Virus record (IMG/VR): IMGVR_UViG_3300020044_006256
Coordinates: 1-62,650 of that record
Reading direction: 5' to 3' (one strand)
DNA: 62,650 nt
Source of the DNA: a virus
Taxonomy: Duplodnaviria; Caudoviricetes
Every line of letters begins with the position of its first letter. Position 1 is the stretch's first letter. A program made the translations under genes and the position numbers. The notes beneath the pieces are model-generated. The model was not told where the DNA came from. It saw only the letters and a program-made list of their open reading frames with translations, and ran no database searches. Of the stretch, positions 1,800-47,913 are shown piece by piece.

Positions 1800-3698
1800 T
1801 TATTTGTTTTTTGCTATCCATTCTGGATGATGTCCATTGTATGGCATATCTATTGGTGCTACTACTGCATCATTTAAACCCGCTGGTGTTGGATTGTATC
1901 CATCTATACTTGCAACCTCTTCACTAGATGACAAAGATTTGTCTGCATATGGTGTACCATCTGTTTTAGTCTTCAATCTGTATAGGTTTTCATTCCAAAT
2001 ATGCCCACAATTTACTCCGCCTTTAAATCTGAATAAAGAATAGTTTTCTCCATTATGTCCAAATTCGTTATTTACACCGGTAAACGAAGCCATATCTATA
2101 TCCTCCTTGCGATATACTACTCCAGATGCAGTTCTTGCCATCATATTAACGCAAAATGACCTAGAATTGCTACTGCTATATTTCTCTGCATATTCATATC
2201 TAACTTTATAAAGATTCTCATCTAAATAACTTGCTTCGCTTGGCTTACTTTTAATAAAACCACCAAGTTTTGTCTCCTCTTTTGCAGTAATATTTGATTT
2301 TGCCCACTCTTTTATCTCACTATTTCCCTCGTCAAACTCTCTTTTGTCTACTAGTTCCCATTCATCTGTCACTACTTCCCCATTAAAAGAGTTAATATCA
2401 AAGCATTCGTGGTCTTCACTTAATGTTTGTTGTGGTACTACTTGCTGAATCGATGCTTTTAAGCCTACCAGAGACCTAATTTCGTCAGCAGTCATACTCT
2501 CAAGTACCTTATTTGCTACTAGTGGACTTAATGAATTAATACCATCTATAATTGTAGTTGATTTTTCAGAGATAGTCAACTCATTTGTGGCATCTAATGG
2601 TTGTAAAGTTTTGAAATAAAGGTTTAAATTGATATCATTATACGCTAGTATAGTATCAAAGTACTTTATTAGTAAATTTTGAAATGGTTTTATTACTGTA
2701 TTCTGCATTAAAATAGTTGCAGTCTGTAACTCATCTGCATTATTACCAAATCCGCTATTATCTTTGATGCCTAATAGCATTGGCGAGATTACTCGATGTG
2801 CTACCATTATCTTTCTCATAGACTCATCACTCAAAAATTGGTATTGGTTATGTGCATCCGATAATTGTACTGGAGTAATAGTTGCACCATAGTCATTAGA
2901 GTCATTAAAAGATAAAATGAATCTACCAGCGTTTGAAGTTCCAGAAAACTTTTGGGTTATACTTCTCTCAATATCTCTTTGCTCATCCTCTGTAGGAGTT
3001 CCATTGTTGAAATTAATTAACATACTAGGAGCAAGACCATTCATAATATTGTTAAGATGGTAATTGCTTATTTCCTCCTCTAATTCGCAGTACTGCAATC
3101 CTCCTTGCCAATCTGGTGGTGAGTAATAATAAAATCCAGTTTTGTATGGTTTTATGTATAGTATCTCTTCTTGCTCATTACTTGTTCCAAATGCTGGAAT
3201 TGGTGTTGGTGGATATTGTCTAGTTACCTTTGTCCAATCGTCAGAATAAAAATAAAATTCAACATCTCCATCCTCATTGCATTTTCCGCTTCTTAAAGTT
3301 TCAACTGGAAAATGGTTTACCTCTACAATTCTGCTTCTATCAATAGAATAAACAACTTGAATAGCACATTGTCCCATTGCTTTTAAATCATAGCACAATC
3401 TCTCTGTTGTATTGTCATCAAATAATAACATTGCTTGTGCATAGTCTTCTGGCTTAATTTGTGCATCTGTAGAATCTAAACCTTGCCCAAATATCATTTG
3501 ACTAATTCCGTTTATAATAGCATTGTTGGTTGGACTACCATTAATTCTGTCTTGAATGTACCCAAAATAATTATTATCCTCTCCATATGAAATCCATTCT
3601 TGGTTTCTTACTTCTAATATTTTTGGACTCGTGTATGTAGCTAAACTGACTACACCAATTCCAGTATTTTTAGGTTTTATTTCTGCTTTTTTTCTCAT
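1800..3698 (-). CDS. Portal protein with C-terminal Cys/His (MuF-like) extension
   Basis: Portal-like core (GSPTNNAII, AHRVISPMLLGIKD, GFGNNADEL); C-terminal SRSFC...KGGVNCGHIW; orthologue of 32086..33708. Confidence 0.8.
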   Translation of the reverse strand: MRKKAEIKPKNTGIGVVSLATYTSPKILEVRNQEWISYGEDNNYFGYIQDRINGSPTNNAIINGISQMIFGQGLDSTDAQIKPEDYAQAMLLFDDNTTERLCYDLKAMGQCAIQVVYSIDRSRIVEVNHFPVETLRSGKCNEDGDVEFYFYSDDWTKVTRQYPPTPIPAFGTSNEQEEILYIKPYKTGFYYYSPPDWQGGLQYCELEEEISNYHLNNIMNGLAPSMLINFNNGTPTEDEQRDIERSITQKFSGTSNAGRFILSFNDSNDYGATITPVQLSDAHNQYQFLSDESMRKIMVAHRVISPMLLGIKDNSGFGNNADELQTATILMQNTVIKPFQNLLIKYFDTILAYNDINLNLYFKTLQPLDATNELTISEKSTTIIDGINSLSPLVANKVLESMTADEIRSLVGLKASIQQVVPQQTLSEDHECFDINSFNGEVVTDEWELVDKREFDEGNSEIKEWAKSNITAKEETKLGGFIKSKPSEASYLDENLYKVRYEYAEKYSSSNSRSFCVNMMARTASGVVYRKEDIDMASFTGVNNEFGHNGENYSLFRFKGGVNCGHIWNENLYRLKTKTDGTPYADKSLSSSEEVASIDGYNPTPAGLNDAVVAPIDMPYNGHHPEWIAKNK

Positions 3699-14657: not shown

Positions 14658-15812
14658 TTATCTTACTGCATATTTACCATAGTTTGGTCTGGCTAATTTA
14701 TCATATAAACCATATCGTATTGCATCGATGGTATGGTTAAACATATCTACTGGAGTGTTTAATACGTTTCCGTTTTTATCCTCTTGCCATTTGTAGTTTC
14801 TAAATTCTTTTATCATATTGACTGAATCTTTAGTTACGTGAAGCTGGTAACGTTTCATCATATCTATTCCTATATTAACCGAGCCTTGTCCTTTTGTAGC
14901 TGGTTTAACATTCCAACCCATTCTATATAATTCCTCTATTGATTTTGGCTCTGCACTATCTGCAAATATTTCCTTTCGCTCTACTGAATGAAACTTTAAT
15001 TTTTCGTCTATGTCTCTGTTTGTTAATCCGGTCTGGTATAATAACTCTTTTAAATATATGTTATCGCCTTGCTGGTAAATAGCTACTAAAGTTGTTGGGT
15101 CATTCGTAAATCCAAAGTCCATTCCATAACTTAAAAACTTTGCCTCTGGAGGAATACTATTGCATTCGTTAATACGGAATATTAAGGCTTGTGATGAACC
15201 GATTTGTCCTAGTCCATATATCTTCCAGTAATTCTCATCAACGTCTCTTAAGCGTTCTATTTCGTTTACTGTTTCAATATCTAAAAATGGATTGTCTTTG
15301 TAGGTAGTAATGTAAAATTCTGCATCGTCTCTAGGTTTAATCTTATCATAAATAAAATGAAACTCATCTGAAGGATTGTAGTCTAGGATTGCTTTGTCAG
15401 TTGTTCTTAATATTAACTGCTGCCAGTCTTCGAAGTATAATTCGTTTGCCTCGTTTATGTATAGTACATCTCTTTTACGACCTCTTACTTTTTGTGGCTG
15501 GTCTAAAGATATAAACTCAAATAGATTGTTGTTTAAAAGGTATTCAGAATTACTTTTGTTGTGGTTTGCCTCTTTGTAGATATCATACTTTTTTAGTATA
15601 TCAAAAAAATCCCTCATCGAACTTGCTCTCAATGCGGGAAATGTTTTTCTACAAATGGTTATTGTCTTACCGTTATTCCTATCTGAATAAGCAAATATTA
15701 ACCACATTAAAATATTATAAGTTTTACCAGAACGGCTACCTCCTTGCTCAATAGTAATTCTCTTATCTGAATTATCTAAATGAGTATATATTTTATTCGT
15801 GGTTATTTCCAT
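14658..15812 (-). CDS. terL: Terminase large subunit (PBSX-like)
   Basis: Walker A GGSRSGKT, INEANE, DYNPS, YGMDFG, ADSAEP, NHTIDA. Confidence 0.95.
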   Translation of the reverse strand: MEITTNKIYTHLDNSDKRITIEQGGSRSGKTYNILMWLIFAYSDRNNGKTITICRKTFPALRASSMRDFFDILKKYDIYKEANHNKSNSEYLLNNNLFEFISLDQPQKVRGRKRDVLYINEANELYFEDWQQLILRTTDKAILDYNPSDEFHFIYDKIKPRDDAEFYITTYKDNPFLDIETVNEIERLRDVDENYWKIYGLGQIGSSQALIFRINECNSIPPEAKFLSYGMDFGFTNDPTTLVAIYQQGDNIYLKELLYQTGLTNRDIDEKLKFHSVERKEIFADSAEPKSIEELYRMGWNVKPATKGQGSVNIGIDMMKRYQLHVTKDSVNMIKEFRNYKWQEDKNGNVLNTPVDMFNHTIDAIRYGLYDKLARPNYGKYAVR

Positions 15813-17914: not shown

Positions 17915-18625
17915 TTATTTTGTTTTTAATTTTAATAATAGATAGCATTCGATAAATCTCTCTCTTGCTTTCTGTTTGTATATCTTTTTGAATAGTTCAA
18001 ATACTACTCTAATATAAGAATAATGGCTTAAACAGTCTTTAAATGCTTTCTGGCAGTACTTTGCTCCATATCCTTTACAGAAGTTTACATTGTCAGCAGT
18101 ATCTCCAGATATCATCTGCTCATAGAAATTGTATCTTGCCTCCTCTTCTGTTATATTGTGGTAGCATTGTTTTTTATAATGGTAATCGTAAATGATGCAA
18201 GGCAGTTGTTTGTAGTCTTTGTCTATGCTTACTATTATTACTTGGTCTCTTCCAAATGTATCTGTTAGATTTTTCCAATAGGTAGCAACTAAATCATCTG
18301 TTTCTATTCCATACCCTTGCTTGGCTTCATATTGCTCTTGCACATAATCGTGCAAATCATTTAGTACTGGTGGTATTTCTCTTCCTACTCTATTGGCTTT
18401 GTATGTGCTGGATATATGCTTTCTAAAATTGCCTCTTGCACCAGCAAATGTAATTACCTTATCAATCTCGTGGTCAAGTTCAATAGTGTTGATTATTTTC
18501 ATTACTACCTCATTATACTTGTCTTTGGCATCCTCTATAGTATGATATCCATCGTCTTCTGGATGTTCTTTTTGTCTGTAGCAACTGCTCCAGATTAAAC
18601 TGTCTGCATCAATTAATATTATCAT
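17915..18625 (-). CDS. 5'-3' exonuclease/flap endonuclease
   Basis: LIDAD, NFRK, YKANR, ETDD, SIDKD, GDTADNV, KGYGAK. Confidence 0.85.
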   Translation of the reverse strand: MIILIDADSLIWSSCYRQKEHPEDDGYHTIEDAKDKYNEVVMKIINTIELDHEIDKVITFAGARGNFRKHISSTYKANRVGREIPPVLNDLHDYVQEQYEAKQGYGIETDDLVATYWKNLTDTFGRDQVIIVSIDKDYKQLPCIIYDYHYKKQCYHNITEEEARYNFYEQMISGDTADNVNFCKGYGAKYCQKAFKDCLSHYSYIRVVFELFKKIYKQKARERFIECYLLLKLKTK

Positions 18626-18635
18626 TTGTTTTGTT

Positions 18636-19046
18636 TTAGTGTTTGTGGATTAATGCTGCTTGGCTTTCTGTAAGCATATAACATTGCTTGTCTATTAATT
18701 CTGTATTGCTAAACTTCTCTGTTGTTTTACAATTTATAGCAACTGGCTCTGGTATATTCAATGTGTCTAAATAATAAAGATAGTTCCCTTTGTTATCAAA
18801 TACATAATAAAACTTTAAGCATTGCTCTTGCATCAATTTAGAGTACTTGTAATGCTCCAAAATCTTTGTTTGGTAATATGAATGCCTTAACTTAAATTCT
18901 ATTACGCAATCGAACCCTTTTGGTGTTTTGCCTTTTGCATCATAATGCTCAAATCCTCCTCCGCACCATTCTAGATTCCAACCCTCTAAATTCATTAAAT
19001 GAATAATACCTTGCTCCCATTTGTGGTGTGATGTTTCATTACTCAT
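18636..19046 (-). CDS. PD-(D/E)XK-like nuclease (putative)
   Basis: HYDAKG...VIEFKLR. Confidence 0.45.
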   Translation of the reverse strand: MSNETSHHKWEQGIIHLMNLEGWNLEWCGGGFEHYDAKGKTPKGFDCVIEFKLRHSYYQTKILEHYKYSKLMQEQCLKFYYVFDNKGNYLYYLDTLNIPEPVAINCKTTEKFSNTELIDKQCYMLTESQAALIHKH

Positions 19047-19610: not shown

Positions 19611-19791
19611 ATATAAATCTTTTAAATTGTTTTAGTTCGTTTTTATCTACAAAGAATTTCCTTTGGTTTAGTGCTTTTGCCATTAGCCAGTTTCCATATT
19701 CATAAGCAAAATCATCCGATAAATTTTCTGCTAACTCATCTACCTTTTGTAAGTAATTTTGATGTACGTAATTCTTAAATTTACTTTCCAT
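19576..19791 (-). CDS. Hypothetical protein
   Basis: ORF in operon context. Confidence 0.45.
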   Translation of the reverse strand: MESKFKNYVHQNYLQKVDELAENLSDDFAYEYGNWLMAKALNQRKFFVDKNELKQFKRFIYDRARISTMEE

Positions 19792-20481: not shown

Positions 20482-21393
20482 TTACAAAAAGTTTAGTTGG
20501 CTCTCTTTTATAGTTCTTAAAATGGATTTTCCATTTATACTAAAACCTACGTTATTTTGTAAAGCTACGATTTCTATCGGATTATCAATACTGCTTGGTC
20601 TTCCTCCAGTTTCAATCTCTTTAATCTTTCGAATGTGAATCATCGTAGTTGTGTAGAGTTGCGGATGCAGAGTCAATCTGTGGATGACTACAAAATCATC
20701 TGCTCTATTTACAAACTTTCCTCCTCCCTCTACATCACTTGCCATTGGTGGTAAAGGATGACCAGCAAATGGATGGTCTGCTCTGTATACCATACGCAAT
20801 GCGTTAGTATTTGCGTGAGTATTTAGCCATAGGCTTACTTTAAATTCTTTGCAGAACATTCTCATCTCTGTACAAGCTTGGTAATCATATTCGTGACCAC
20901 CAAGATTTTTCATCAAATCATTATCCTTTACTAATGCGTTGTACGGATCTAGTAAGATACCATTGAAATTAAATTCTTTCTTTACTCTTTTAAACATTTC
21001 AATAGCAGACCTATAGTCATACATATTTGAATTGTCAACGAATTTAAAATGATTGTTAATGAATTCTGTGTGAGTTTTAAAGTTACTTTCTGAAACCAAA
21101 TTAATTGGTGTCTCATCTAAAAACTCTACCAGTTTGCGGATTAAAGAATAAGAATCATTCTCAGTACTACAGACTAACCATTTAAGATTGTGTTTAAGTG
21201 AATAGCAAAGCATTAAGTAGAGAATGCTGGTAGTTTTACCTACATTTGCGTGTCCAAGTACTATATTAAAATTTGATGTCTTAAATCTTATGTACTCATC
21301 TAATTCGGGTATATCTAGTTTCAATCCCTCTTTTAGTTTACCACTTCTTATTTGTCGTAGTATGTCTAATTGTTTATTGTAATCTATTAGCAT
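20482..21393 (-). CDS. DnaB/RecA-family (SF4) replicative helicase
   Basis: GHANVGKT Walker A, LLDPYN, EGGGKFVNRAD. Confidence 0.8.
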   Translation of the reverse strand: MLIDYNKQLDILRQIRSGKLKEGLKLDIPELDEYIRFKTSNFNIVLGHANVGKTTSILYLMLCYSLKHNLKWLVCSTENDSYSLIRKLVEFLDETPINLVSESNFKTHTEFINNHFKFVDNSNMYDYRSAIEMFKRVKKEFNFNGILLDPYNALVKDNDLMKNLGGHEYDYQACTEMRMFCKEFKVSLWLNTHANTNALRMVYRADHPFAGHPLPPMASDVEGGGKFVNRADDFVVIHRLTLHPQLYTTTMIHIRKIKEIETGGRPSSIDNPIEIVALQNNVGFSINGKSILRTIKESQLNFL

Positions 21394-21455
21394 TTGTTTT
21401 AGTGTTTTAAATTATCGGCAGCAAGTTTAATTTACTGACGATTTATAGTTAATAT

Positions 21456-21809
21456 TTAGAATGGCAATCCATCATCCTCCTCATCTACAAAAGTAGCAAC
21501 ATTTATTGGATGTCTATCTGGCATAAATGATTCAGCAGATTTCTCTTTCTCTCCTTTACTTATGTTCCATCCTTGAATGTTTGCATAGTACTTCCCTTTC
21601 CATTCTGTTCCTCTTAAATTGATTCCTATTTTTACAATGTCTCCTATCTGGTAGTTGTCTAATAGTGCAACTTTATCTTGCGTGAATTCAACTGGAATAG
21701 TCTGAGGATATTGCTCATCTGTTTTGACGACTGCTAGTCTCTTTTTAAATCCTTTTGCTCCGATTGTTTCTGTTTCTCCTATAACAATTATTGTTCCTTG
21801 TACTTCCAT
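21456..21809 (-). CDS. DUF3127 SSB-like protein
   Basis: GFKKR, QYPQ, INLRG.EW.GKYY..IQGW, acidic DDGLPF tail. Confidence 0.8.
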   Translation of the reverse strand: MEVQGTIIVIGETETIGAKGFKKRLAVVKTDEQYPQTIPVEFTQDKVALLDNYQIGDIVKIGINLRGTEWKGKYYANIQGWNISKGEKEKSAESFMPDRHPINVATFVDEEDDGLPF

Positions 21810-21810
21810 C

Positions 21811-22419
21811 TTATTTTGCTTTTAAAAGTTGTTTTCTTACTTCTGTATCTAATCTGTATTTTTTCTCTATTAATTCTATTTCTCCTCCTCCAGCGATATA
21901 ATCTACTGCACCTTTAAATGCTGGTGTATCAAATTCTAGAAATGGTTTATCTAATTCTTTTGGTACTTCTACAACTTTCACTGTTTTATCGTGGTTATTA
22001 GTTGCATCTGCATCGGCAGTATCATCAATCAAAAGCAAGTTACCTAATGCATATTTTTTAGCATAGCTGGATGCACTTCCAAACTGTTGTGGTACTTGCA
22101 TTCCTTTTTGGTTTAAATCTATTCCAACTATTGCTGAACAGTCAATGCTTTTTTCTGTTTCACAATCCCAGATTGTAGCAACCGATGTCATAACTGGTGG
22201 ATTAGCATTTATTAATTGCTCGTTAATAGTGAAGTAAACTCCATATTTTTCATTCATTGGTTTTAATCCCTCCAAAATGTCCTCTGCACTTCTAAAGTTA
22301 TACTTACCGAATGAATTAAATCTGCTCTTTTTAGCTTTGAATTCATACTGGATTCTAGATAATTTTTCTCCAATACTTAATGGAATTTCTAATGCTGGTA
22401 ATTCAATTTTTGTTGCCAT
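21811..22419 (-). CDS. erf: ERF-family ssDNA annealing protein
   Basis: NSFGKYNFRSAEDIL, QQFGSASSYAKKYAL...DDTADAD. Confidence 0.85.
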   Translation of the reverse strand: MATKIELPALEIPLSIGEKLSRIQYEFKAKKSRFNSFGKYNFRSAEDILEGLKPMNEKYGVYFTINEQLINANPPVMTSVATIWDCETEKSIDCSAIVGIDLNQKGMQVPQQFGSASSYAKKYALGNLLLIDDTADADATNNHDKTVKVVEVPKELDKPFLEFDTPAFKGAVDYIAGGGEIELIEKKYRLDTEVRKQLLKAK

Positions 22420-22420
22420 C

Positions 22421-22639
22421 TTAATTTGTTTTTAGTGAGTAGGTATTACTACTATTGTTAAATTGATAAAATCCTTGTCCATAATTATTGCAAACTATCT
22501 CGGCATCGTGGACCTCAATACCCATAGTTAATCTTTCATTCTCATCCATTAATCTTGCATTCTCAATTCTTAATGCTTCAATACTCTGGCTCATATAGTT
22601 TACCAGTTCTTTTGTACTCCAAGTTTCATTGTTTTTCAT
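22421..22639 (-). CDS. Hypothetical coiled-coil protein
   Basis: ORF preceded by ACTAAAACAA leader motif. Confidence 0.55.
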   Translation of the reverse strand: MKNNETWSTKELVNYMSQSIEALRIENARLMDENERLTMGIEVHDAEIVCNNYGQGFYQFNNSSNTYSLKTN

Positions 22640-22655
22640 TTTATATTTGTTTTAG

Positions 22656-22907
22656 TTAGTATTCTGTGTATTCGTGATATTCGTCAAAGATAACTTTATA
22701 TTCCAAATTCCTATGTATCATCTGCCATTTCTGTTTCATTGCTTGTGCTTCATTTTCAGTAAGTAAAACTGTATGTGGGTATCCCTCTTCTAATAGTACC
22801 CATCTGTTTTCCTCCTCTTCGTCTATAAACTCACAATGCTCTTTACAGTCTCCACATATTCCAGTATCTTCCATCCATTCAGATGCTCCGCAGCAGTTAC
22901 TTTCCAT
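22656..22907 (-). CDS. Small zinc-finger-like protein
   Basis: SNCCGA...ICGDCKEHCEF. Confidence 0.6.
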   Translation of the reverse strand: MESNCCGASEWMEDTGICGDCKEHCEFIDEEEENRWVLLEEGYPHTVLLTENEAQAMKQKWQMIHRNLEYKVIFDEYHEYTEY

Positions 22908-23456: not shown

Positions 23457-23593
23457 TTTGTTTTAGTGTTTAGTGATTAATAAAAAAATCTAGTTAAAAA
23501 ATATACTGCAATAATTCCTATTGCGTAAACTTGGTACTTTTGTTTTGATAAAAATGTTTTCATTTGATATTTGTTTTAGTTTGTTATCGAGGA

Positions 23594-23636
23594 CAAATAT
23601 ATAAACATTTTGTTAATAAAAAAACATTTTGCTAAT
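23594..23636 (-). promoter_or_regulatory. Bacteroidota sigma70-type early promoter with tandem repeat operator
   Basis: -7 element TATATTTG at 23594-23601; direct repeat AAACATTTTG(T/C)TAAT at 23603 and 23622. Confidence 0.6.
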
Positions 23637-23644
23637 TATTTTTA

Positions 23645-23717
23645 AAAAAAAAATCCCATCCATTTACTGGCGGGACTTTTCTCGTTCACTAAAACAATTA
23701 TTATGATAACAAAATTC
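23645..23717 (-). ncRNA. Candidate anti-translation-start sRNA of phage A
   Basis: -7 element TAGATTTG at 23721-23728; contains UUGUUUUAGUG complementary to early-gene leaders; ends in GTCCCGCCA/TGGATGGGAT hairpin plus T9. Confidence 0.5.
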
Positions 23718-23733
23718 CATCAAATCTAAGTAT

Positions 23734-24285
23734 TTATTTTAACTTAACCAACTCTTTTATTAAAATATCGTATTTTAATTTCTTTGCTATTAACTCATCT
23801 TTTGTAAACTTGTAGTTGCGTGTTTGGTTTGCTTTCTCTTCTATCTGGTCTGCGTATTCAATTCCGTATCTTGTAATCAATCCAGATCTATAATTTAATT
23901 CGTTTCCTCCTAGAAATCTGTTGCACTTTCTGCATTGCTTATGACAGTTTTTTTCGTCAAATATAACTCCGCTATATATCTCTGCTTTCTTATAATGTCC
24001 ACCATCCCAAAGTTCTGTATTTTCTACACCACAAGATATGCAAGGTTGTTTATCGTCACGCATTCTAATGTACTTCTGAAATGATTTCTTTGCCTCTGCT
24101 TCATATTGTCCCAAAGTTTTTAGTTTGTCTCTTAAAATGGCTTTTTCTTGCTTCCACTCTCTTTGGTCCTTTTGTTGTTTTAGATTCTTGGAATGTTCAA
24201 TAGCACATTTATAATTGCATACTGCTTGAGCAAACTGTACTGGAGTAAATTTCTCTTGGCAAACTTTACATTTCTTATCTTTCAT
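23734..24285 (-). CDS. ninG: NinG/Rap-family recombination endonuclease
   Basis: KKCKVC, YIRMRD..PCISCG, WDGGHY, NCHKQCRKCN..L.GN. Confidence 0.85.
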   Translation of the reverse strand: MKDKKCKVCQEKFTPVQFAQAVCNYKCAIEHSKNLKQQKDQREWKQEKAILRDKLKTLGQYEAEAKKSFQKYIRMRDDKQPCISCGVENTELWDGGHYKKAEIYSGVIFDEKNCHKQCRKCNRFLGGNELNYRSGLITRYGIEYADQIEEKANQTRNYKFTKDELIAKKLKYDILIKELVKLK

Positions 24286-25475: not shown

Positions 25476-25739
25476 AATATATTTAGTTATTAATTAATAC
25501 TACTTTGAAGTTATTAGTTGGTGAGTAAACAGAGGAAGCCTAAGGGAATAACTGCGTTAGCGTTAATCCAGATATTAATATTTTTCATTTAATACCTTTA
25601 TCATCTGTTTGATTCTACTTAGTTAGCTACTAGCAGTTTCGTTTACAGTTGCACCATTAGAAACCCATTTTAGTGCTTTAAGAATAAGTTAAATTGTTGT
25701 ATTTCCCCATAAATACTTATCCCGATTTGTTTAGGTAAC

Positions 25740-25826
25740 AAAAAACCCTATCAAGGGATGCAGACTTGGTAGGGTGTAATTTTGTAATTATTCAACACCT
25801 AAATCAATAGGTGCATCCTAATTGAT
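25740..25826 (-). ncRNA. Candidate structured leader/attenuator RNA with loop-loop complementarity
   Basis: -7 TATCTTTG at 25831-25838; hairpin carrying GGATGCA; terminator whose loop carries TGCATCC. Confidence 0.55.
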
Positions 25827-25878
25827 GAGCCAAAGATAAAAATATAATTTAATAAAAAAAACTTTTAAGTAATTATTT

Positions 25879-26715
25879 TTATAACTCCATTGGAATTACT
25901 ATTGGCAATGTTCCATTATTTAAAAGTACACCACATCCGATTGCTGGTTTTTTAAAATTGCGGCCATAGGCCATAGCGTAAGTTTTATTGTTTACTCCGC
26001 AACCTACTTGCATTCCAAATATTCTAAAATTCTTGCCTACTATATACTCTACATATAAATCCGAATGCAGATGTCCTTGTATTTGGCTCTGGAGTTCTTT
26101 TTTCATTTTAGCTCTTGCAGTTCCTCCCTCTCCGTGATTAATATTTACATTATATAAATCTAGGCTTTCAACAAATTCCCAATTCGGGACATTTAATACA
26201 TCTCTGTACTCTTTAATCCATCTTTTAGATACTCCTCCAGAGAATGCCTTGCGATAAACTAGTCTGTCGTGGTTTCCAATTATTACAGTTGCCTTTGGAA
26301 ATGCTTTGTAAAACTTTTGAAGTTCTCTAATTGCCAAATCCAATTCGTCTCCAGCACTCATTCCATCTGGGTCAGATTCGTGGTAACTTGAATAGTGATT
26401 GTCAAGCAAATCTCCGATAAAAATTACAGTACCACATTTAAACTTTTTTTGTTGCTCAAGGCAAAATTCTAAATAAGATTGTAAATTAAATGGACAATGT
26501 AAATCTCCAATTATCAAAATGTTGTTTGGATTTCCAAATTGGTATGGCTCTAAATCTTTTAAATTTTTCTTTCTAACTTTACCAATCTGCTTCCGTAAAT
26601 TTTCTATTTCTGAAAAATCTCCATCGGGTAAAATCTGTTTTGCTATCTCTGTATTGTTAAAATTGAACTGAATTAAATCTAAAATCTGACTGTCTAAATG
26701 TTGGTATTTTAACAT
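25879..26715 (-). CDS. Calcineurin-like metallophosphoesterase with N-terminal HTH-like region
   Basis: GDLH, GDLLD, GNHD, HG, GHLH motifs; -7 TAGATTTG at 26740-26747. Confidence 0.85.
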   Translation of the reverse strand: MLKYQHLDSQILDLIQFNFNNTEIAKQILPDGDFSEIENLRKQIGKVRKKNLKDLEPYQFGNPNNILIIGDLHCPFNLQSYLEFCLEQQKKFKCGTVIFIGDLLDNHYSSYHESDPDGMSAGDELDLAIRELQKFYKAFPKATVIIGNHDRLVYRKAFSGGVSKRWIKEYRDVLNVPNWEFVESLDLYNVNINHGEGGTARAKMKKELQSQIQGHLHSDLYVEYIVGKNFRIFGMQVGCGVNNKTYAMAYGRNFKKPAIGCGVLLNNGTLPIVIPMEL

Positions 26716-32085: not shown

Positions 32086-33708
32086 TTAATTTAATGCGCC
32101 TCTGTTTGGCATATTAATAGGTTCTAAACCTGCTAATCCTTTTGCCGGTTGTTGTTTTGTTTTATCAATAGCTATTGGAGAATAAACATCTACTTTTACG
32201 TTTTCGTCTTTTCTCTTGTATGTCAATTTTTCCCAATAATGATGGCAATTTACACCGCCTTTATATTTAAAAATATCGTATGTACTTGCTCCTTTCGGTC
32301 CAAAACCTGCATTTACAGGTATATCTGCCATAGCTTCTATATCTTCTATTCGATAAACTTTCCCTGAAGAAATCATTTTGCTACAAAAAATCCTTTCTCC
32401 AATTGCACTACCTGCATATCTATAACGTGTTATAGTATCAAACAAATCATATCTTGACTTGTTATAAGGCGTTGCTGTTCCTGTTGATGCTAAACCTATT
32501 TTTGTTTCTTCATCATAATCAACAGGTTTACATTCGACTAATTCGTAGTTGGTTAAATCTTCAACTTCACCCAATTCGATAAACATGTCCAAAGGGGATT
32601 TCTCAACACTCAAAGTAACTGGTGCTTGTACTTCGGTTAATGGTCTGAAATATAAATCTAAACTTATACCATAAGCAGAAAGAACTTCTTTAAAAGCTTC
32701 AATTAAAAACTTTTGCTTTGGTTGTATTACTCGCTTGATAAGTTGCGCTTCTGCTGTGTCTAATTCATCCGCATTATTCCCGAATCCTGTTGCGTCTTTT
32801 ATCCCGAATAACATAGGAGAAACAACTCGATGCGAAGTCATTATTTGCTGTCTGCTTTCGCTTGTCAAATATTCCCATTGTTTGTGCATTTGCTCATTAA
32901 CAGGAAACGGTGTGATTGTAATTTCGGCATCTCTACCGTTGAATGATAAAACAAAGGATAATGCATTTGGCGAGCCTGTAAGTTTTTCTTTTATCTTTCT
33001 TTCAAACTCCTTTTTTTCTTCAGTTGTATAGCTTTTACCATCGGGAATATTTATGATATAACCAGCGGACAATCCTTTGCGGATGCAGTTAATATAAAAG
33101 TTTGCGATTTCTTCTTCAAGTTCGCAATAAGGCAAACCTGCTAAATAGTCCGGGTCGCTAAAATATGTCTTACCGGCTTTGTATGGTTTACCGTTATAAA
33201 TTTGAATTGAATCTTTACCAAACCCAAAAGCGGAGAAAGGCATCGGTGTATATTTATTAGTATTCTTCCAATCCTTACAATAGTAATATTTTTCTATTTC
33301 TTCTTCGTTATTTTCTTTTTGTGGCGCAATGCGTTCTTTAGGCAAATGTTTTATTGATCCTAAATCTTTACCATCTTTAGTTTTTATAACTTGGTATGAA
33401 AACTCGTTAAACATTACATAGTCAGAAATTATCTTTCTAACATCCTGGTCCTTCATTATAGTCTTGAAACGTAACCAATCGGTAATATTATCCTTTGCAT
33501 TTTTAGCGTATAAACCATTACCGTACATTAAATCGATATATGAATTAATTACCGCAGAATTAGTAGCAGAGCCATTATAACGCCCAATTATATATTGATA
33601 AAAGGAATTGTCTTTACCGTTTAAAACCCAATCTTTAGATGCGTTTTCTTCAATCTTCGGTCTTATGTATTGGTTTAATTGAATTAAAGTAATATCTTCT
33701 TTATTCAT
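32086..33708 (-). CDS. Portal protein with C-terminal Cys/His (MuF-like) extension
   Basis: SHRVVSPMLFGIKD, GFGNNADEL; ERIFC...KGGVNCHHYW. Confidence 0.8.
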   Translation of the reverse strand: MNKEDITLIQLNQYIRPKIEENASKDWVLNGKDNSFYQYIIGRYNGSATNSAVINSYIDLMYGNGLYAKNAKDNITDWLRFKTIMKDQDVRKIISDYVMFNEFSYQVIKTKDGKDLGSIKHLPKERIAPQKENNEEEIEKYYYCKDWKNTNKYTPMPFSAFGFGKDSIQIYNGKPYKAGKTYFSDPDYLAGLPYCELEEEIANFYINCIRKGLSAGYIINIPDGKSYTTEEKKEFERKIKEKLTGSPNALSFVLSFNGRDAEITITPFPVNEQMHKQWEYLTSESRQQIMTSHRVVSPMLFGIKDATGFGNNADELDTAEAQLIKRVIQPKQKFLIEAFKEVLSAYGISLDLYFRPLTEVQAPVTLSVEKSPLDMFIELGEVEDLTNYELVECKPVDYDEETKIGLASTGTATPYNKSRYDLFDTITRYRYAGSAIGERIFCSKMISSGKVYRIEDIEAMADIPVNAGFGPKGASTYDIFKYKGGVNCHHYWEKLTYKRKDENVKVDVYSPIAIDKTKQQPAKGLAGLEPINMPNRGALN

Positions 33709-43640: not shown

Positions 43641-43668
43641 TAAATACAAAAAACCCGATTCTGTTTCA
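43641..43668 (-). promoter_or_regulatory. Phage B late promoter TGAAACAG-N12-TGTATTTA
   Basis: Matches 34010-34037. Confidence 0.65.
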
Positions 43669-44871
43669 AAGAATTTCTATTCCGTAGCTTCCTGATAAGT
43701 GATAGGTAACTACATAACGCAATGGGTCAATAAGGTGGTTATAATCGTCGATGTATAAACTCGACTTCTTATCGGTGTAAACAAAGTTGTTAAACTCTTT
43801 CCCTAAATTACTTGAATCTTCATCTACTATAATTGTGTAGTCTAGTAGCAAAGCGATTCCGTGAGTAATTGAACCTGCGCCTTTTTCTGCTCCGATAATA
43901 TTACAACCTAGCGATTGTAATTCGCTTATTAAACGTGGCTCTGCTGAATCCCCAATGATTAACTGATTACCACAAACCGTTCTATTAACGTGTGCTATTT
44001 CTGTTGTGGTTAATTTAGCTTTGTAAAGATGTTCTTTGCAGTAGATAATCTTTTTACGCTTATCAATAGCAACTTCAATTAGTGTTGTAGGATCAATACT
44101 AAATCCGTAATCCTGCCCAAAGGAAGTTTGTAAGTTATCCGGATTGAACCTTCCGTAATTCCAATTCGAGAAAACAACACCCTCCGCTTTGTCAAGCCAT
44201 CCGCCCATTACTGTATGAGCGTACTTCTTTGGGTTATGTATTTTTATTCTTTCAATCTCATTGATGAAGCTTTCATCTAGGTTATCAATGTTATCTAGGT
44301 AGGTAGTATGAATATAAGTAACATCGTCTTTAACGCCATTGAATCCTTCCTGAACTCCAACGCTTTCAAAGAACCTTTTATAAATCCAATGCTCTTTTGT
44401 TGCAGGATTTAAGATTAAGATAATACGGTTTTGTTTTCCCTTTTGTCTAATGGATAGGTTTATCTTATCGAATACGGATTCGTCAACAAGTTCTTCTGCT
44501 TCATCTAATATCCAAGTTGTAACACCTTGTAATGATTTAAGATTTGCGGTTTGGTCTCCGCTTGAAGTCTTTATCCCTTTAAAGATTATTTCACTTTTAG
44601 AATAGTTATGTTTAATCTCGGATTTATTAACTTCAAATAAAGGATTTAATCCCATTAAATCAATCTTCTCTTGAAACTCCGGAATGATTGAAAGGTGTGC
44701 AGATGTCATTGTCTGCCGAGTAAATAGTATTTTATGCCCAGCTTCAAAAGATAATCCACAAAGATAAGATGCAACTCCAAAAGATTTGGAAGAACCCCGC
44801 CCTCCTGTTATAATGAAATACCTTGTTTCGTTTTCTACTAAAGGATAATATTTACTACTTAAGGTTATCAA
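43666..44871 (-). CDS. terL: Terminase large subunit (PBSX-like)
   Basis: GGRGSSKS, LDEAEE, LNP, GQDYG, GDSAEP, NHLIDP. Confidence 0.95.
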   Translation of the reverse strand: MITLSSKYYPLVENETRYFIITGGRGSSKSFGVASYLCGLSFEAGHKILFTRQTMTSAHLSIIPEFQEKIDLMGLNPLFEVNKSEIKHNYSKSEIIFKGIKTSSGDQTANLKSLQGVTTWILDEAEELVDESVFDKINLSIRQKGKQNRIILILNPATKEHWIYKRFFESVGVQEGFNGVKDDVTYIHTTYLDNIDNLDESFINEIERIKIHNPKKYAHTVMGGWLDKAEGVVFSNWNYGRFNPDNLQTSFGQDYGFSIDPTTLIEVAIDKRKKIIYCKEHLYKAKLTTTEIAHVNRTVCGNQLIIGDSAEPRLISELQSLGCNIIGAEKGAGSITHGIALLLDYTIIVDEDSSNLGKEFNNFVYTDKKSSLYIDDYNHLIDPLRYVVTYHLSGSYGIEIL

Positions 44872-46396: not shown

Positions 46397-46614
46397 TAGT
46401 TAAATCCTAAAGTTTTTAATGCCAAAACACTTTTAATCTCTGCGAACAACCCTTCGGAAAAATCTAACTCGTAAATCTGACCGCTTAACACTACACCCAA
46501 ATACCCATCTTCATTTACAAAGCAACCCTGCACTTGGTTTATATTAAAATAGAAGTCAACAAAGTACTCATCTTCATCTGTCAAACCGTACATTAGTAAC
46601 TTTGCGACTACCAT
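46396..46614 (-). CDS. Hypothetical protein
   Basis: First ORF after the promoter at 46632. Confidence 0.55.
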   Translation of the reverse strand: MVVAKLLMYGLTDEDEYFVDFYFNINQVQGCFVNEDGYLGVVLSGQIYELDFSEGLFAEIKSVLALKTLGFN

Positions 46615-46631
46615 ATAAATATTATTTCTAA

Positions 46632-46664
46632 CAAATATATAAAAAAAGTAGTTACATTCACTAC
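46632..46664 (-). promoter_or_regulatory. Sigma70-type promoter with 17 bp operator
   Basis: -7 TATATTTG at 46632-46639; GTAGTTACATTCACTAC at 46648-46664. Confidence 0.6.
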
Positions 46665-46693
46665 TATTTAATTATTTTTTTTTATCTTCGTAC

Positions 46694-46756
46694 TTTCATA
46701 GTTTAATTATTTGGTTAATAGTCATTAGATCCCCTTCGGAAGTTGGGGATTTTTTG
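46694..46756 (+). ncRNA. Candidate anti-translation-start sRNA of phage B
   Basis: -7-like TATCTTCG at 46683-46690; begins TTTCATAGTT (complement of AACTATGAAA); plus-strand terminator AGATCCCC/GGGGATTT plus T run although neighbouring genes are minus strand. Confidence 0.5.
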
Positions 46757-46758
46757 AT

Positions 46759-47913
46759 TTACAGTTCAGGTGATTTATCCATTATCTCTTTACGGTTAAT
46801 TTCATTCTGTTTAGTCAAATAGATTAAAGTAGTTTCCTTCTTGCTATGCCCAAACGTGCCTTGAATTGCATCAATGGAAATACCAGCTTCGGCTTTCTTA
46901 TTCGCTCCGTACTTCTTCATCGAATACATCGTTACGTTTATCTTCAATCCTATCTTAACAATCTTTTCCCAACGTTTTGTCGCTGTATCTCTTTTTAGTT
47001 GAGTAGGAGCAGGGATGAAGTCAACGTGCTTTCCAATGTTACCTTTGCCAACTTCCCGAAAGGATCCAAATAAATAATAATCCTTTGGTAAGTTTTCAAA
47101 TTGCAAACTTATAAGGAACTCTTTTAGCTGGGTTGTAATTGGGAGCGTTCGATATTTCTTTCTGCCTTTGGTGATGTTAGGCGGTAGTATTATTAAATCC
47201 CTTTCCATATCAATCATAGAAAGCTTTATACTTAAAATCTCGGTTGGTCTTATTCCTAAATTGTAAATGATTAAGATATAAATATAAAAGTTATAGTGAT
47301 TGTGCAACAACTCTTTCTTAATAAGTTTCATTTGTTCATCGGTTGCAGGAATATGGGCGATACTTTCTTCAACTCGAAGGTTCTTAATATTATGCGCTGG
47401 ATTAGCTTCGATAATATCGTATTGGATTAGTTCACTTAATACCGCTTTTAATTGGTTTAAATGCTTGTTGTAGGCGTTATTGGTCCAGGAGCGTTGCGAT
47501 TGTGCTTTCTCCATTATAGTCTTAATATGAACCCGCTTTACTTCGGTAATAGGTAAATCATTCAATCGTAATGCCTTTACAGCTTTCTTTATAAACTTAA
47601 TTGTCCCCTCATATCCTGATGCTGTTTTCTTTGCGATGTTAGGTCGTTTCTTTTCGATGGCGAAATCGAGTGCTGTGCTAATAGTGTAATTAGTTCCCGT
47701 TTCGGGAATTTCTTTTATATTTGGATTCCAACCTTTATTAAGTTTCTCGTATAGCAGTTCGCATAAAACATCAAATTCCATTTCTTTCTTTTCTAGGTTA
47801 TCGATTTCATTTAAGTTAAAACGGTAGCGGAATTGTTTCTTATTATATCTGAAATGCACGTACCATTTATCCTTTGTTTTATTGATTTTTGGTATAGAAA
47901 AAGTAACAGCCAT
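46759..47913 (-). CDS. int: Tyrosine integrase
   Basis: GIRPTE (R), TKG (K), YSMK, FGH, IY catalytic pattern; adjacent attP. Confidence 0.9.
   Translation of the reverse strand: MAVTFSIPKINKTKDKWYVHFRYNKKQFRYRFNLNEIDNLEKKEMEFDVLCELLYEKLNKGWNPNIKEIPETGTNYTISTALDFAIEKKRPNIAKKTASGYEGTIKFIKKAVKALRLNDLPITEVKRVHIKTIMEKAQSQRSWTNNAYNKHLNQLKAVLSELIQYDIIEANPAHNIKNLRVEESIAHIPATDEQMKLIKKELLHNHYNFYIYILIIYNLGIRPTEILSIKLSMIDMERDLIILPPNITKGRKKYRTLPITTQLKEFLISLQFENLPKDYYLFGSFREVGKGNIGKHVDFIPAPTQLKRDTATKRWEKIVKIGLKINVTMYSMKKYGANKKAEAGISIDAIQGTFGHSKKETTLIYLTKQNEINRKEIMDKSPEL

What the first reader, a model, noticed from the sequence alone, without database searches (positions are those of the whole stretch)
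23645..23728. Candidate phage sRNA antisense to the translation starts of its own early genes (phage A)
Seen: a Bacteroidota -7 box TAGATTTG (23721-23728), ~70 nt, then a terminator whose G-U pairs and T9 tail work only on the minus strand. The transcript reads ...UUAUCAUAAUAAUUGUUUUAGUG..., an anti-AUG followed by the exact complement of the CACUAAAACAA motif found before five early genes (two more with one extra base). This is the only copy of the motif I saw in that orientation. Inference: a trans-acting multi-target RNA that shuts off early and replication translation, a protein-free early-to-late switch or superinfection block in a phage with no repressor. Phage B has an analogous element at 46694, suggesting a general system.
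Basis: partly seen in the sequence, partly recalled or inferred. Interest (0 to 1): 0.85.

Follow-up and report, generated by a model that had tools for sequence, protein, structure and literature searches.

The report
Phage small RNA mirroring early-gene starts
A conserved unit of about 70 bases in a family of small Flavobacteriia-type phages looks like a small RNA that is the antisense image of the phage's own early-gene translation starts, and its sequence changes in step with those starts across related phages, but no expression data exist yet.

Summary
Between the NinG/Rap gene (23734-24285, minus) and the next promoter lie a TAGATTTG -7 box, about 40 unstructured U-rich bases and a strong minus-strand terminator.

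The unit recurs once per locus in 45 related phage loci, on the gene strand. Box-to-tail length was 82-89 nt in the 18 first measured. The box is invariant, and six terminator pairs show compensatory changes.

The 5' part holds two modules:
- the complement of the start context ATTATGA;
- the complement of a phage-specific leader word (CACTAAAAC here) found before early recombination and replication genes.

Leader word and seed change together across classes: CACT/AGTG, AACT/AGTT, AACC/GGTT, and leader A-runs of 3, 4 or 5 against seed T-runs of 3, 4 or 5. One class fits poorly.

Best reading (about 0.5): a trans-acting anti-start RNA that lowers translation of the early module.

Not shown: any transcript, and the direction of regulation. 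A mirror reading, with the same word acting on the opposite strand or as a DNA site, fits the covariation equally well. The proposed counterpart in phage B is not supported. No Rfam family matches.

The parts
23734..24285 (-). NinG/Rap-like junction endonuclease gene, last gene of the upstream operon. Its stop lies 5 nt before the -7 box.
   Evidence: PF05766 at 2.4e-40 and phrog_171 at 1.7e-54.
23721..23728 (-). -7 promoter box TAGATTTG of the Bacteroidota sigma-A type. The predicted start is near 23716.
   Evidence: Sequence. The T, A, T, T, T and G positions are invariant in 14 aligned relatives. The box stays with the unit when another ORF is inserted after NinG. Geometry G-5/+1 is taken from passages of PMC6847099.
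23700..23706 (-). Anti-start module TCATAAT, the complement of the common start context ATTATGA.
   Evidence: The start triplet on the opposite strand is kept in 24 of 25 distinct units. 76 of 536 called ORF starts match the image over 7 nt or more, start codon included.
23687..23697 (-). Seed TTGTTTTAGTG, the exact complement of the leader word CACTAAAACAA.
   Evidence: It is the only hit in this orientation in the window. The reverse complement of the most recurrent start-region 9-mer occurs once on the gene strand in 28 kb, and it is here.
23644..23680 (-). Intrinsic terminator, shared with the NinG operon. It comprises a short A-tract, a hairpin (23676-23654) and T10 (23653-23644).
   Evidence: Fold. 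12 consensus pairs, 6 with changes on both sides, in 12 diverse units.
23594..23643 (-). Next promoter (P2). The TATATTTG box lies at 23601-23594, behind a conserved AT-rich upstream region with two direct repeats.
   Evidence: A similar architecture recurs at 25831-25880.
23571..23581 (-). Leader word (one mismatch) before ATG 23563, a 28-codon hydrophobic ORF that is the first P2 gene.
   Evidence: Duplex -18.0 kcal/mol.
23458..23468 (-). Exact leader word before ATG 23456 (76-aa ORF).
22647..22657 (-). Leader word (one mismatch) before ATG 22639 (72-aa ORF).
22425..22437 (-). Leader word with one extra A, before the Erf gene (ATG 22419).
   Evidence: for the context. Erf is PF04404. Duplex -19.6 kcal/mol.
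21394..21404 (-). Exact leader word directly before the DnaB-like helicase gene (ATG 21393).
19627..19637 (-). Leader word (one mismatch) upstream of ATG 19610 (60-aa ORF).
18631..18641 (-). Exact leader word before the 5'-3' exonuclease gene (ATG 18625). This is the best predicted target because both modules can pair.
   Evidence: Duplex -20.3 kcal/mol.

Best explanation
The unit is a phage-encoded small RNA of about 70 nt. It is made from its own host-type promoter at the very end of the NinG operon and ends at that operon's terminator. This is the layout of a 3'-UTR-type sRNA with its own promoter.

Its unstructured, U-rich 5' part is the antisense image of the translation start region that this phage uses for its early recombination and replication genes. 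It carries the complement of a phage-specific leader word and the complement of the ATTATGA start context.

The RNA would pair in trans with these start regions and lower their translation. The predicted targets are small ORFs, Erf, the helicase and the exonuclease. The host group has no Shine-Dalgarno pairing and depends on unpaired upstream adenines, so occupying the A-run and the AUG should block initiation.

What is shown: the anatomy, the conservation, the complementarity and the covariation.
What is inferred: that the RNA is made, that it pairs in trans, that the effect is repression, and any role in timing or dosage feedback.
For: 1. A discrete cassette.
- The covariance model finds 47 matches in 100 sources (840,549 bases), at most one per source. 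45 are on the gene strand.
- Box-to-tail length is 82-89 nt in the 18 complete units out of 20 sequences examined; two were cut by contig ends. Outliers of 95 and 103 nt exist.

2. The promoter belongs to the unit.
- The six defining positions of the box are invariant in 14 aligned relatives while the flanks vary.
- The box stays with the unit when other ORFs sit between NinG and it, in L055 and L085.

3. A real terminator. 6 of 12 pairs show changes on both sides.

4. Complementarity is specific.
- The only inverted copy of the word in the window is here.
- In WIN, L050, L051, L052 and L090, the reverse complement of a recurrent start-region 9-mer occurs on the gene strand only inside the unit. 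In L089 it occurs twice, once inside.
- 93 of 573 start windows, against 14 of 573 ORF-internal windows, carry 9 nt or more of perfect complementarity to their own unit. At 10 nt, 10 of 20 loci beat 1000 shuffles at p < 0.05.

5. Covariation, using the helicase leader in phages whose helicases are 92-99% identical.
- Leader word against seed: CACT/AGTG (window), AACT/AGTT (L078), AACC/GGTT (L036, L037, L044, L048).
- Elsewhere, leader A-runs of 3, 4 or 5 face seed T-runs of 3, 4 or 5 (L094; the window; L089 and L084).
- Own-versus-swapped test on 9 class representatives: p = 0.007, 0.0007 and 0.02 for 9, 10 and 11 nt.

6. The targets form one module. The best duplexes are the exonuclease, Erf, the first P2 ORF and the helicase. 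24 of 53 starts reach -10 kcal/mol or lower, against a shuffle mean of 8.8, sd 4.5, maximum 21.

7. Host context. Passages of PMC6847099 report no SD use, adenines at -14 to -11, -6 and -3 promoting initiation, and the -7 element geometry.
Against: - No expression evidence of any kind.
- The window's own box has G at -10. PMC6847099 reports G as virtually absent at -10 and -9 in 241 probable F. johnsoniae promoters. However, the same TAGATTTG also stands 32 nt before the 26715 gene, and most relatives have TAHHTTTG.
- Complementarity on one strand equals identity on the other, so the covariation cannot by itself separate RNA pairing from a mirrored motif.
- The energy matrix of all sRNA by genome pairs shows little preference for a phage's own RNA. 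U-rich RNA pairs with any A-rich start region.
- Single mismatches show no G-U tolerance bias: 5 U:G against 4 C:A.
- Class C (L041, L045, L047 and copies) fits its helicase leader poorly, at 8-9 nt. L040 and L050 have no word there. 10 of 20 loci are not better than shuffles at 10 nt.
- The loci are related and mosaic, so independent switches are few, perhaps 4 to 6. I chose the class representatives myself.
- The exact seed is only 11 AU-rich pairs.
Confidence: 0.5

Rival explanations
1. Mirror reading. The functional object is the leader word plus ATG on the plus strand, or the word as a double-stranded DNA site for a phage protein. The unit would then simply hold one more copy, in inverted orientation. 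It would track the other copies because all of them serve the same recogniser.
For: The plus strand carries a textbook start region, word plus ATTATGA, kept in 24 of 25 distinct units. The covariation is equally expected under this reading. There is no wobble asymmetry.
Against: - The plus-strand ORF is 4 to more than 50 codons long with unrelated peptides, and it is missing in L042/L070 although box, seed and terminator remain.
- I read no TAnnTTTG box on the plus strand upstream of it.
- All other copies have one orientation and sit 0-12 nt before start codons, also inside operons. That points to an RNA-level role.
- The invariant minus-strand box and the constant box-to-tail distance have no role in this reading.
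Confidence: 0.17
2. Cis reading. The anti-start sequence works within longer transcripts, either the NinG mRNA 3' end or read-through from the box into the next operon. It folds back on the first start region 60-85 nt beyond the terminator, so only transcripts begun at P2 are translated. No free small RNA would be needed.
For: The first start region after the terminator carries the word in nearly every locus, at +62 to +85. It is the longest match in some: L078 at 14 nt, and L036 at 12 nt by my reading of the rows.
Against: The terminator is strong, with 10-13 pairs and T9-10, so read-through should be low. Words 1-7 kb further on also track the seed, for example at the helicase and the exonuclease. 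Cis folding does not explain that.
Confidence: 0.15
3. It is only the terminator and 3' UTR of the NinG operon. The complementarity would be a by-product of AT-rich composition, short-repeat exchange between leaders, and linkage to the neighbouring module.
For: The composition effect is real. Some classes and 10 of 20 loci are not better than shuffles. The phages encode an Erf annealing protein that could homogenise short repeats (the homogenising step is my inference).
Against: The single inverted copy falls exactly here, against roughly 0.05 expected per strand in the whole window by my own estimate from base composition. The box is invariant. Matched class changes occur between phages with 92-99% identical helicases. 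Permutation p values are 0.0007-0.02.
Confidence: 0.1

Closest known systems
c4 antisense RNA of phages P1 and P7
   Same: A phage RNA of about 77 nt that blocks translation by pairing around a ribosome binding site. Matched differences between RNA and target in related phages give separate specificities (heteroimmunity). Source: passages of the review PMC12197685 seen.
   Different: c4 acts on one operon (ant). Here 6-8 start regions of a whole module carry the target word. The host lacks SD-based initiation. There is no sequence or family relation: no Rfam match. The relatives checked have no integrase, so an immunity role is not evident.
Cis-antisense phage RNAs: lambda OOP, P22 sar and sas
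   Same: Short phage RNAs ending at intrinsic terminators that control phage genes by pairing (review passages).
   Different: Those are transcribed opposite to their target and overlap it. This unit is on the same strand as all its putative targets and overlaps none.
T4 RegA translational repressor (recalled, no call)
   Same: One factor shutting down translation of many early mRNAs by occupying AU-rich start regions.
   Different: RegA is a protein. Here the proposed factor is an RNA whose specificity is written in a seed.
3'-UTR-derived sRNAs with their own promoter, such as DapZ and MicL (recalled, no call)
   Same: A promoter at or inside the end of a coding gene, with the terminator shared with the mRNA.
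   Different: Those are Hfq-dependent enterobacterial host RNAs. This one is phage-borne, and to my recollection its host phylum has no known Hfq.
RsaE/RoxS-type sRNAs of Firmicutes (recalled, no call)
   Same: The seed targets a generic start-region feature, so many mRNAs are hit.
   Different: Those use C-rich seeds against SD sequences. Here a U-rich seed faces an A-run plus a phage-specific word.

Membership tests
Intrinsic (Rho-independent) terminator | Stable G+C-containing hairpin directly followed by a U-run on the transcribed strand | tested here: met
   Hairpin plus T10. Pairs are kept through compensatory changes in 12 diverse units.
Bacteroidota sigma-A promoter | -7 element TAnnTTTG, refined to TAHHTTTG | tested here: inconclusive
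   TAnnTTTG is present and invariant in relatives. The window's copy has G at -10, which is rare in F. johnsoniae. Most relatives fit TAHHTTTG.
Bacteroidota sigma-A promoter | -33 element TTTG, or AT-rich tracts upstream | tested here: inconclusive
   The window has TTGG 19 nt upstream. L036 has TTTG at that place (my reading). The region is also NinG coding sequence.
Trans-acting base-pairing sRNA | A discrete short transcript | not testable with these tools
   No RNA run was listed.
Trans-acting base-pairing sRNA | Accessible seed complementary to several unlinked targets | tested here: met
   The 5' part is mostly unpaired in folds. Exact or near-exact sites stand before 6-8 starts spread over 5-8 kb.
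Trans-acting base-pairing sRNA | Seed-target covariation | tested here: met
   The limits are given in the Against line (class C, relatedness, mirror ambiguity).
Trans-acting base-pairing sRNA | A regulatory effect on the targets | not testable with these tools
   Needs reporters or infection experiments.
Any described RNA family (Rfam 15) | Match to a curated covariance model | tested here: not met
   0 matches at gathering score in the window. Locally there is only a sub-threshold chance match: U6atac, 19 bits against 33.
Cis-antisense RNA | Transcribed opposite to, and overlapping, its target gene | tested here: not met
   Same strand as all neighbouring genes.
Leader peptide or mini-ORF on the plus strand | A conserved open frame or peptide | tested here: not met
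   4 to more than 50 codons with unrelated peptides. None in L042.

The most novel reading that the evidence does not exclude
The seed/leader classes may be specificity groups of an RNA-only control circuit. Near-identical virulent phages (helicases 92-99% identical) carry different matched pairs of anti-start RNA and leader word. Each phage's RNA would then shut down the early module of itself and of same-class relatives, but not of other classes. That would be a protein-free, reprogrammable exclusion or timing system acting on SD-less start regions, diversifying under competition between co-infecting relatives.
Probability: 0.2. Interest if true: 0.85.

Novelty: new variant of a known kind. 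Interest (0 to 1): 0.68.

Why it matters
Regulatory RNAs of phages are known almost only from enterobacterial and a few Gram-positive systems. The 2025 review I searched by term had no occurrence of 'Bacteroid', and two full-text searches gave no report of a Flavobacterium phage sRNA.

If real, this would be a multi-target phage riboregulator in a phylum that initiates translation without Shine-Dalgarno pairing. It would show how an RNA can occupy the A-rich start determinants instead.

The matched seed/leader classes give a ready-made set of natural compensatory mutants for testing. They could also serve as orthogonal translational switches in Flavobacteria.

Tried and rejected
- Expression data: the look-up of sequencing runs listed no RNA holder.
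- Duplex-energy matrix of 15 sRNAs by 15 genomes. Block structure between classes A and B is faint, and a phage's own RNA is often not the best. I rejected it as a discriminating test because U-rich RNA pairs with any A-rich leader.
- Information-weighted perfect-match matrix. Own-RNA ranks range from 1 to 21 of 21, median about 3. This shows class-level signal only.
- Wobble-asymmetry test: 5 U:G against 4 C:A, so no discrimination.
- Unbiased search for the most recurrent start-region word. It worked for A-type genomes. My complexity filter excluded the B and C words, so it says nothing about them.
- Phage B counterpart at 46694: read, start regions listed, covariance model. Not supported.
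- Isolates: tblastn of NinG against 50,697 phage records gave 737 records, all below 60% identity. Flavobacterium phage lillamy9-1 has a different layout around its SSB gene, so no cultured relative is at hand.
- Genome contigs gave 2 distant NinG loci without the unit.
- The regular-expression screen covered 74 of the 82 loci L069-L150. L083, L107, L117, L118, L140, L142 and L147 were dropped because the NinG match is cut by the contig end, and L150 as too distant. The screen missed units in L085, L088 and L089 and falsely picked L114 and L122. The covariance model supersedes it.
- Supplementary files of papers were not opened.
This report is the same text with that field added.

Full report
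**Setting**

The window is one IMG/VR virus record, but it holds two phage genomes' worth of genes. There are two portal genes (1800-3698 and 32086-33708), two large terminase genes (14658-15812 and 43666-44871) and one integrase (46759-47913).

In phage A all genes run on the minus strand. The finding lies between two blocks:
- Upstream is a NinG/Rap-like gene (23734-24285; PF05766, 2.4e-40).
- Downstream is a new transcription unit. It holds small ORFs, Erf (21811-22419), a DUF3127-type SSB (21456-21809), a DnaB-like helicase (20482-21393) and a 5'-3' exonuclease (17915-18625).

**The observation**

- TAGATTTG at 23728-23721;
- the quoted U-rich stretch;
- the 11-base complement of CACTAAAACAA at 23697-23687;
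- a hairpin with one G-U pair and a bulge, followed by ten T.

The fold is -20.9 kcal/mol (z -2.6).

With at most one mismatch the word occurs 11 times in the window, against 3.8 expected. Ten copies are on the gene strand, and one is on the opposite strand, inside this unit.

The count 'five early genes' needs correction. The exact 11-mer precedes three starts. A form differing in the first base precedes three more. A form with one extra A precedes Erf and the phosphoesterase gene. All of these lie in 18.6-26.7 kb, which is the early recombination and replication part. None lies before a structural gene.

**Relatives**

NinG was used to fetch 33 loci from viral contigs and 80 from metagenome contigs. 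In the loci with NinG at about 66% identity or more, the same unit follows.

- In the 18 complete copies among the 20 sequences first examined, the distance from the start of the box to the end of the T-run is 82-89 nt. Two more distant copies measure 95 and 103 nt.
- In an alignment of 14 copies, the six defining positions of TAnnTTTG are invariant while the neighbouring bases vary.
- Twelve diverse copies share a terminator helix of 12 pairs, six of them with changes on both sides.
- A covariance model built from these twelve finds 47 matches in 100 sources, never more than one per source. 45 are on the gene strand. In the window the only match is 23645-23715. Several metagenome loci are the same contigs as viral ones, so distinct sequences are fewer. 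I listed 25.
- In L055 and L085 another ORF has been inserted after NinG. The unit, box included, sits behind that ORF. The box therefore belongs to the unit, not to NinG.

According to passages of PMC6847099, the G of the -7 element is at -5. That puts the start near 23716 and gives an RNA of about 70 nt.

**What the 5' part contains**

There are two modules.
- The first is TCATAAT, kept in 24 of 25 distinct copies. It is the complement of ATTATGA, a frequent start context in these phages. 76 of 536 called starts match the image over 7 nt or more, including the start codon.
- The second is the seed, just before the terminator.

The 5' part is mostly unpaired in single-sequence folds.

**Covariation**

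Different phages use different leader words, and the seed follows them. The helicase gene start gives the clearest series, because the helicase proteins of the window, L078, L042, L036, L037, L040, L044, L048, L041 and L047 are 92-99% identical.

| Loci | Helicase leader | Seed |
|---|---|---|
| Window | CACT + A4 + C | AGTG |
| L078 | AACT | AGTT |
| L036, L037, L044, L048 | AACC | GGTT |

These give perfect stretches of 10-13 nt with the phage's own seed.

More distant phages add length variation.

| Loci | Leader A-run | Seed T-run |
|---|---|---|
| L089, L084 | 5 A (CACTAAAAAC and relatives, several genes) | 5 T |
| L094 | 3 A (one leader of 8 examined) | 3 T |

L054 and L078 extend the match into flanking bases, to 13 and 14 nt.

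Numerical tests:
- Own against swapped pairings on nine class representatives that I chose give p = 0.007, 0.0007 and 0.02 for perfect stretches of 9, 10 and 11 nt.
- Own units beat 1000 shuffles at 10 nt in 10 of 20 loci.
- 93 of 573 start windows, against 14 of 573 internal windows, carry 9 nt or more of complementarity.

**Results that cut the other way**

- Class C (L041, L045, L047 and copies) matches its helicase leader over only 8-9 low-complexity bases, although by my reading of the L041 row its first downstream gene offers 14 nt.
- L040 and L050 have no word before the helicase gene.
- Energy-based matrices barely favour a phage's own RNA.
- Single mismatches show no bias towards G-U.
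- The window's own box carries G at -10, which is rare in F. johnsoniae promoters, although the same octamer also precedes the 26715 gene.
- The loci are related and mosaic, so the number of independent switches is small.
- Above all, complementarity on the gene strand is identity on the other strand. The covariation shows that the unit and the leaders are coupled. It does not show by what.

**Choosing between readings**

The coupling could be RNA-RNA pairing, a common recogniser of the word on both strands, or a DNA site. I favour pairing for four reasons.
- The unit is bracketed by a strand-specific promoter and terminator whose conservation the other readings do not need.
- All other copies share one orientation, directly before start codons and also inside operons. 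That points to an RNA-level role.
- The plus-strand ORF is not conserved and can be absent.
- Whatever the promoter does, the anti-start sequence is transcribed as the 3' end of the NinG mRNA.

A purely cis role on read-through transcripts is possible. It does not explain why words kilobases away track the seed.

**Mechanism proposed**

In Flavobacteria initiation does not use SD pairing. It is promoted by unpaired adenines at -14 to -11, -6 and -3 (passages of PMC6847099). An RNA that pairs with the A-run, the phage word and, in some targets, the AUG should hinder 30S binding.

The best predicted duplexes in the window are:
- the exonuclease, -20.3 kcal/mol, with both modules pairing across a 5 by 5 loop;
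- Erf, -19.6 kcal/mol;
- the first P2 ORF, -18.0 kcal/mol;
- the helicase, -16.4 kcal/mol.

Repression of the early module as the RNA accumulates with genome copies is an inference. In function it would resemble the T4 RegA protein (recalled). Four relatives of 90-100% estimated completeness lack a tyrosine integrase, so a lysogenic immunity role is not indicated.

**Comparison with known systems**

No Rfam family matches.

The nearest described systems are the c4 RNA of P1 and P7, and the cis-antisense RNAs OOP, sar and sas (review passages). The unit differs from c4 in having many targets and no family relation. It differs from the cis-antisense RNAs in lying on the same strand as its targets.

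Full-text searches for Flavobacterium phage small RNAs and for phage-encoded sRNAs acting on translation initiation returned nothing like it. For those hits I saw listings and abstracts only, and the library does not hold most subscription journals.

**Phage B**

The stretch at 46611-46760 holds three features:
- a hairpin whose T-run is on the plus strand;
- a five-codon ORF on the minus strand;
- a weak minus-strand hairpin before a TATATTTG box.

The covariance model finds nothing there. Phage B start regions show no recurrent word on reading. I do not count it as an analogue.

**Verdict**

This is a real, conserved and previously undescribed cassette. The evidence that it is a trans-acting anti-start sRNA is good but purely comparative. 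My confidence is about 0.5 for the full mechanism and about 0.9 that the unit is a functional element coupled to the early leaders.

Noticed in passing
window 25740-25838 (minus), within the ORF-poor stretch 25476-25880: A second candidate small RNA. A TATCTTTG box (25838-25831) sits behind a copy of the P2-type upstream architecture. About 90 nt follow, with two hairpins, the last followed by T6. The fold is -24.2 kcal/mol, z -3.2. No Rfam match in the whole-window scan.
   Followed up: partly
window 23606-23643 and 25840-25880 (minus): The two promoters share an AT-rich upstream block. At P2 it holds two direct repeats about 21 nt apart. This may be a binding site for a regulator, and it is highly conserved in relatives.
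   Followed up: no
L055 1430-1525 and 1530-1990: In some relatives a different structured unit follows NinG, with its own TATCTTTG box, a long-range helix and a terminator. Behind it lies an inserted ORF that looks to me like an HNH-type homing endonuclease; this is my reading of its sequence, and no family search was run. The anti-start unit follows only after this insert. L114 and L139 have similar sequence. No Rfam match.
   Followed up: partly
window 23477-23563 (minus): A 28-codon hydrophobic ORF is the first gene after P2. A similar ORF is kept in L003/L036, L015/L048 and L078.
   Followed up: no
window about 25650-25690 (minus); relatives about 2.0-2.3 kb upstream of the unit: The leader word here is followed by a three-codon ORF, not a gene. 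The stretch is nevertheless conserved in many relatives.
   Followed up: no
window 1-62650: The record joins two phage genomes. There are two portals, two terminases and two copies of phrog_38559. The integrase is only in the second genome. This could be tandem prophages or a chimeric assembly.
   Followed up: partly
L088 and L089 (one metagenome contig of 53,759 bases): Two NinG copies lie about 29 kb apart on one contig. This suggests a concatemer or repeat assembly of a genome of about 29 kb, which fits the contig sizes of about 30 kb among relatives.
   Followed up: no
window 46611-46760: After the integrase stop: a hairpin with its T-run on the plus strand, a five-codon ORF and a weak minus-strand hairpin before a TATATTTG box. 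Unexplained.
   Followed up: partly
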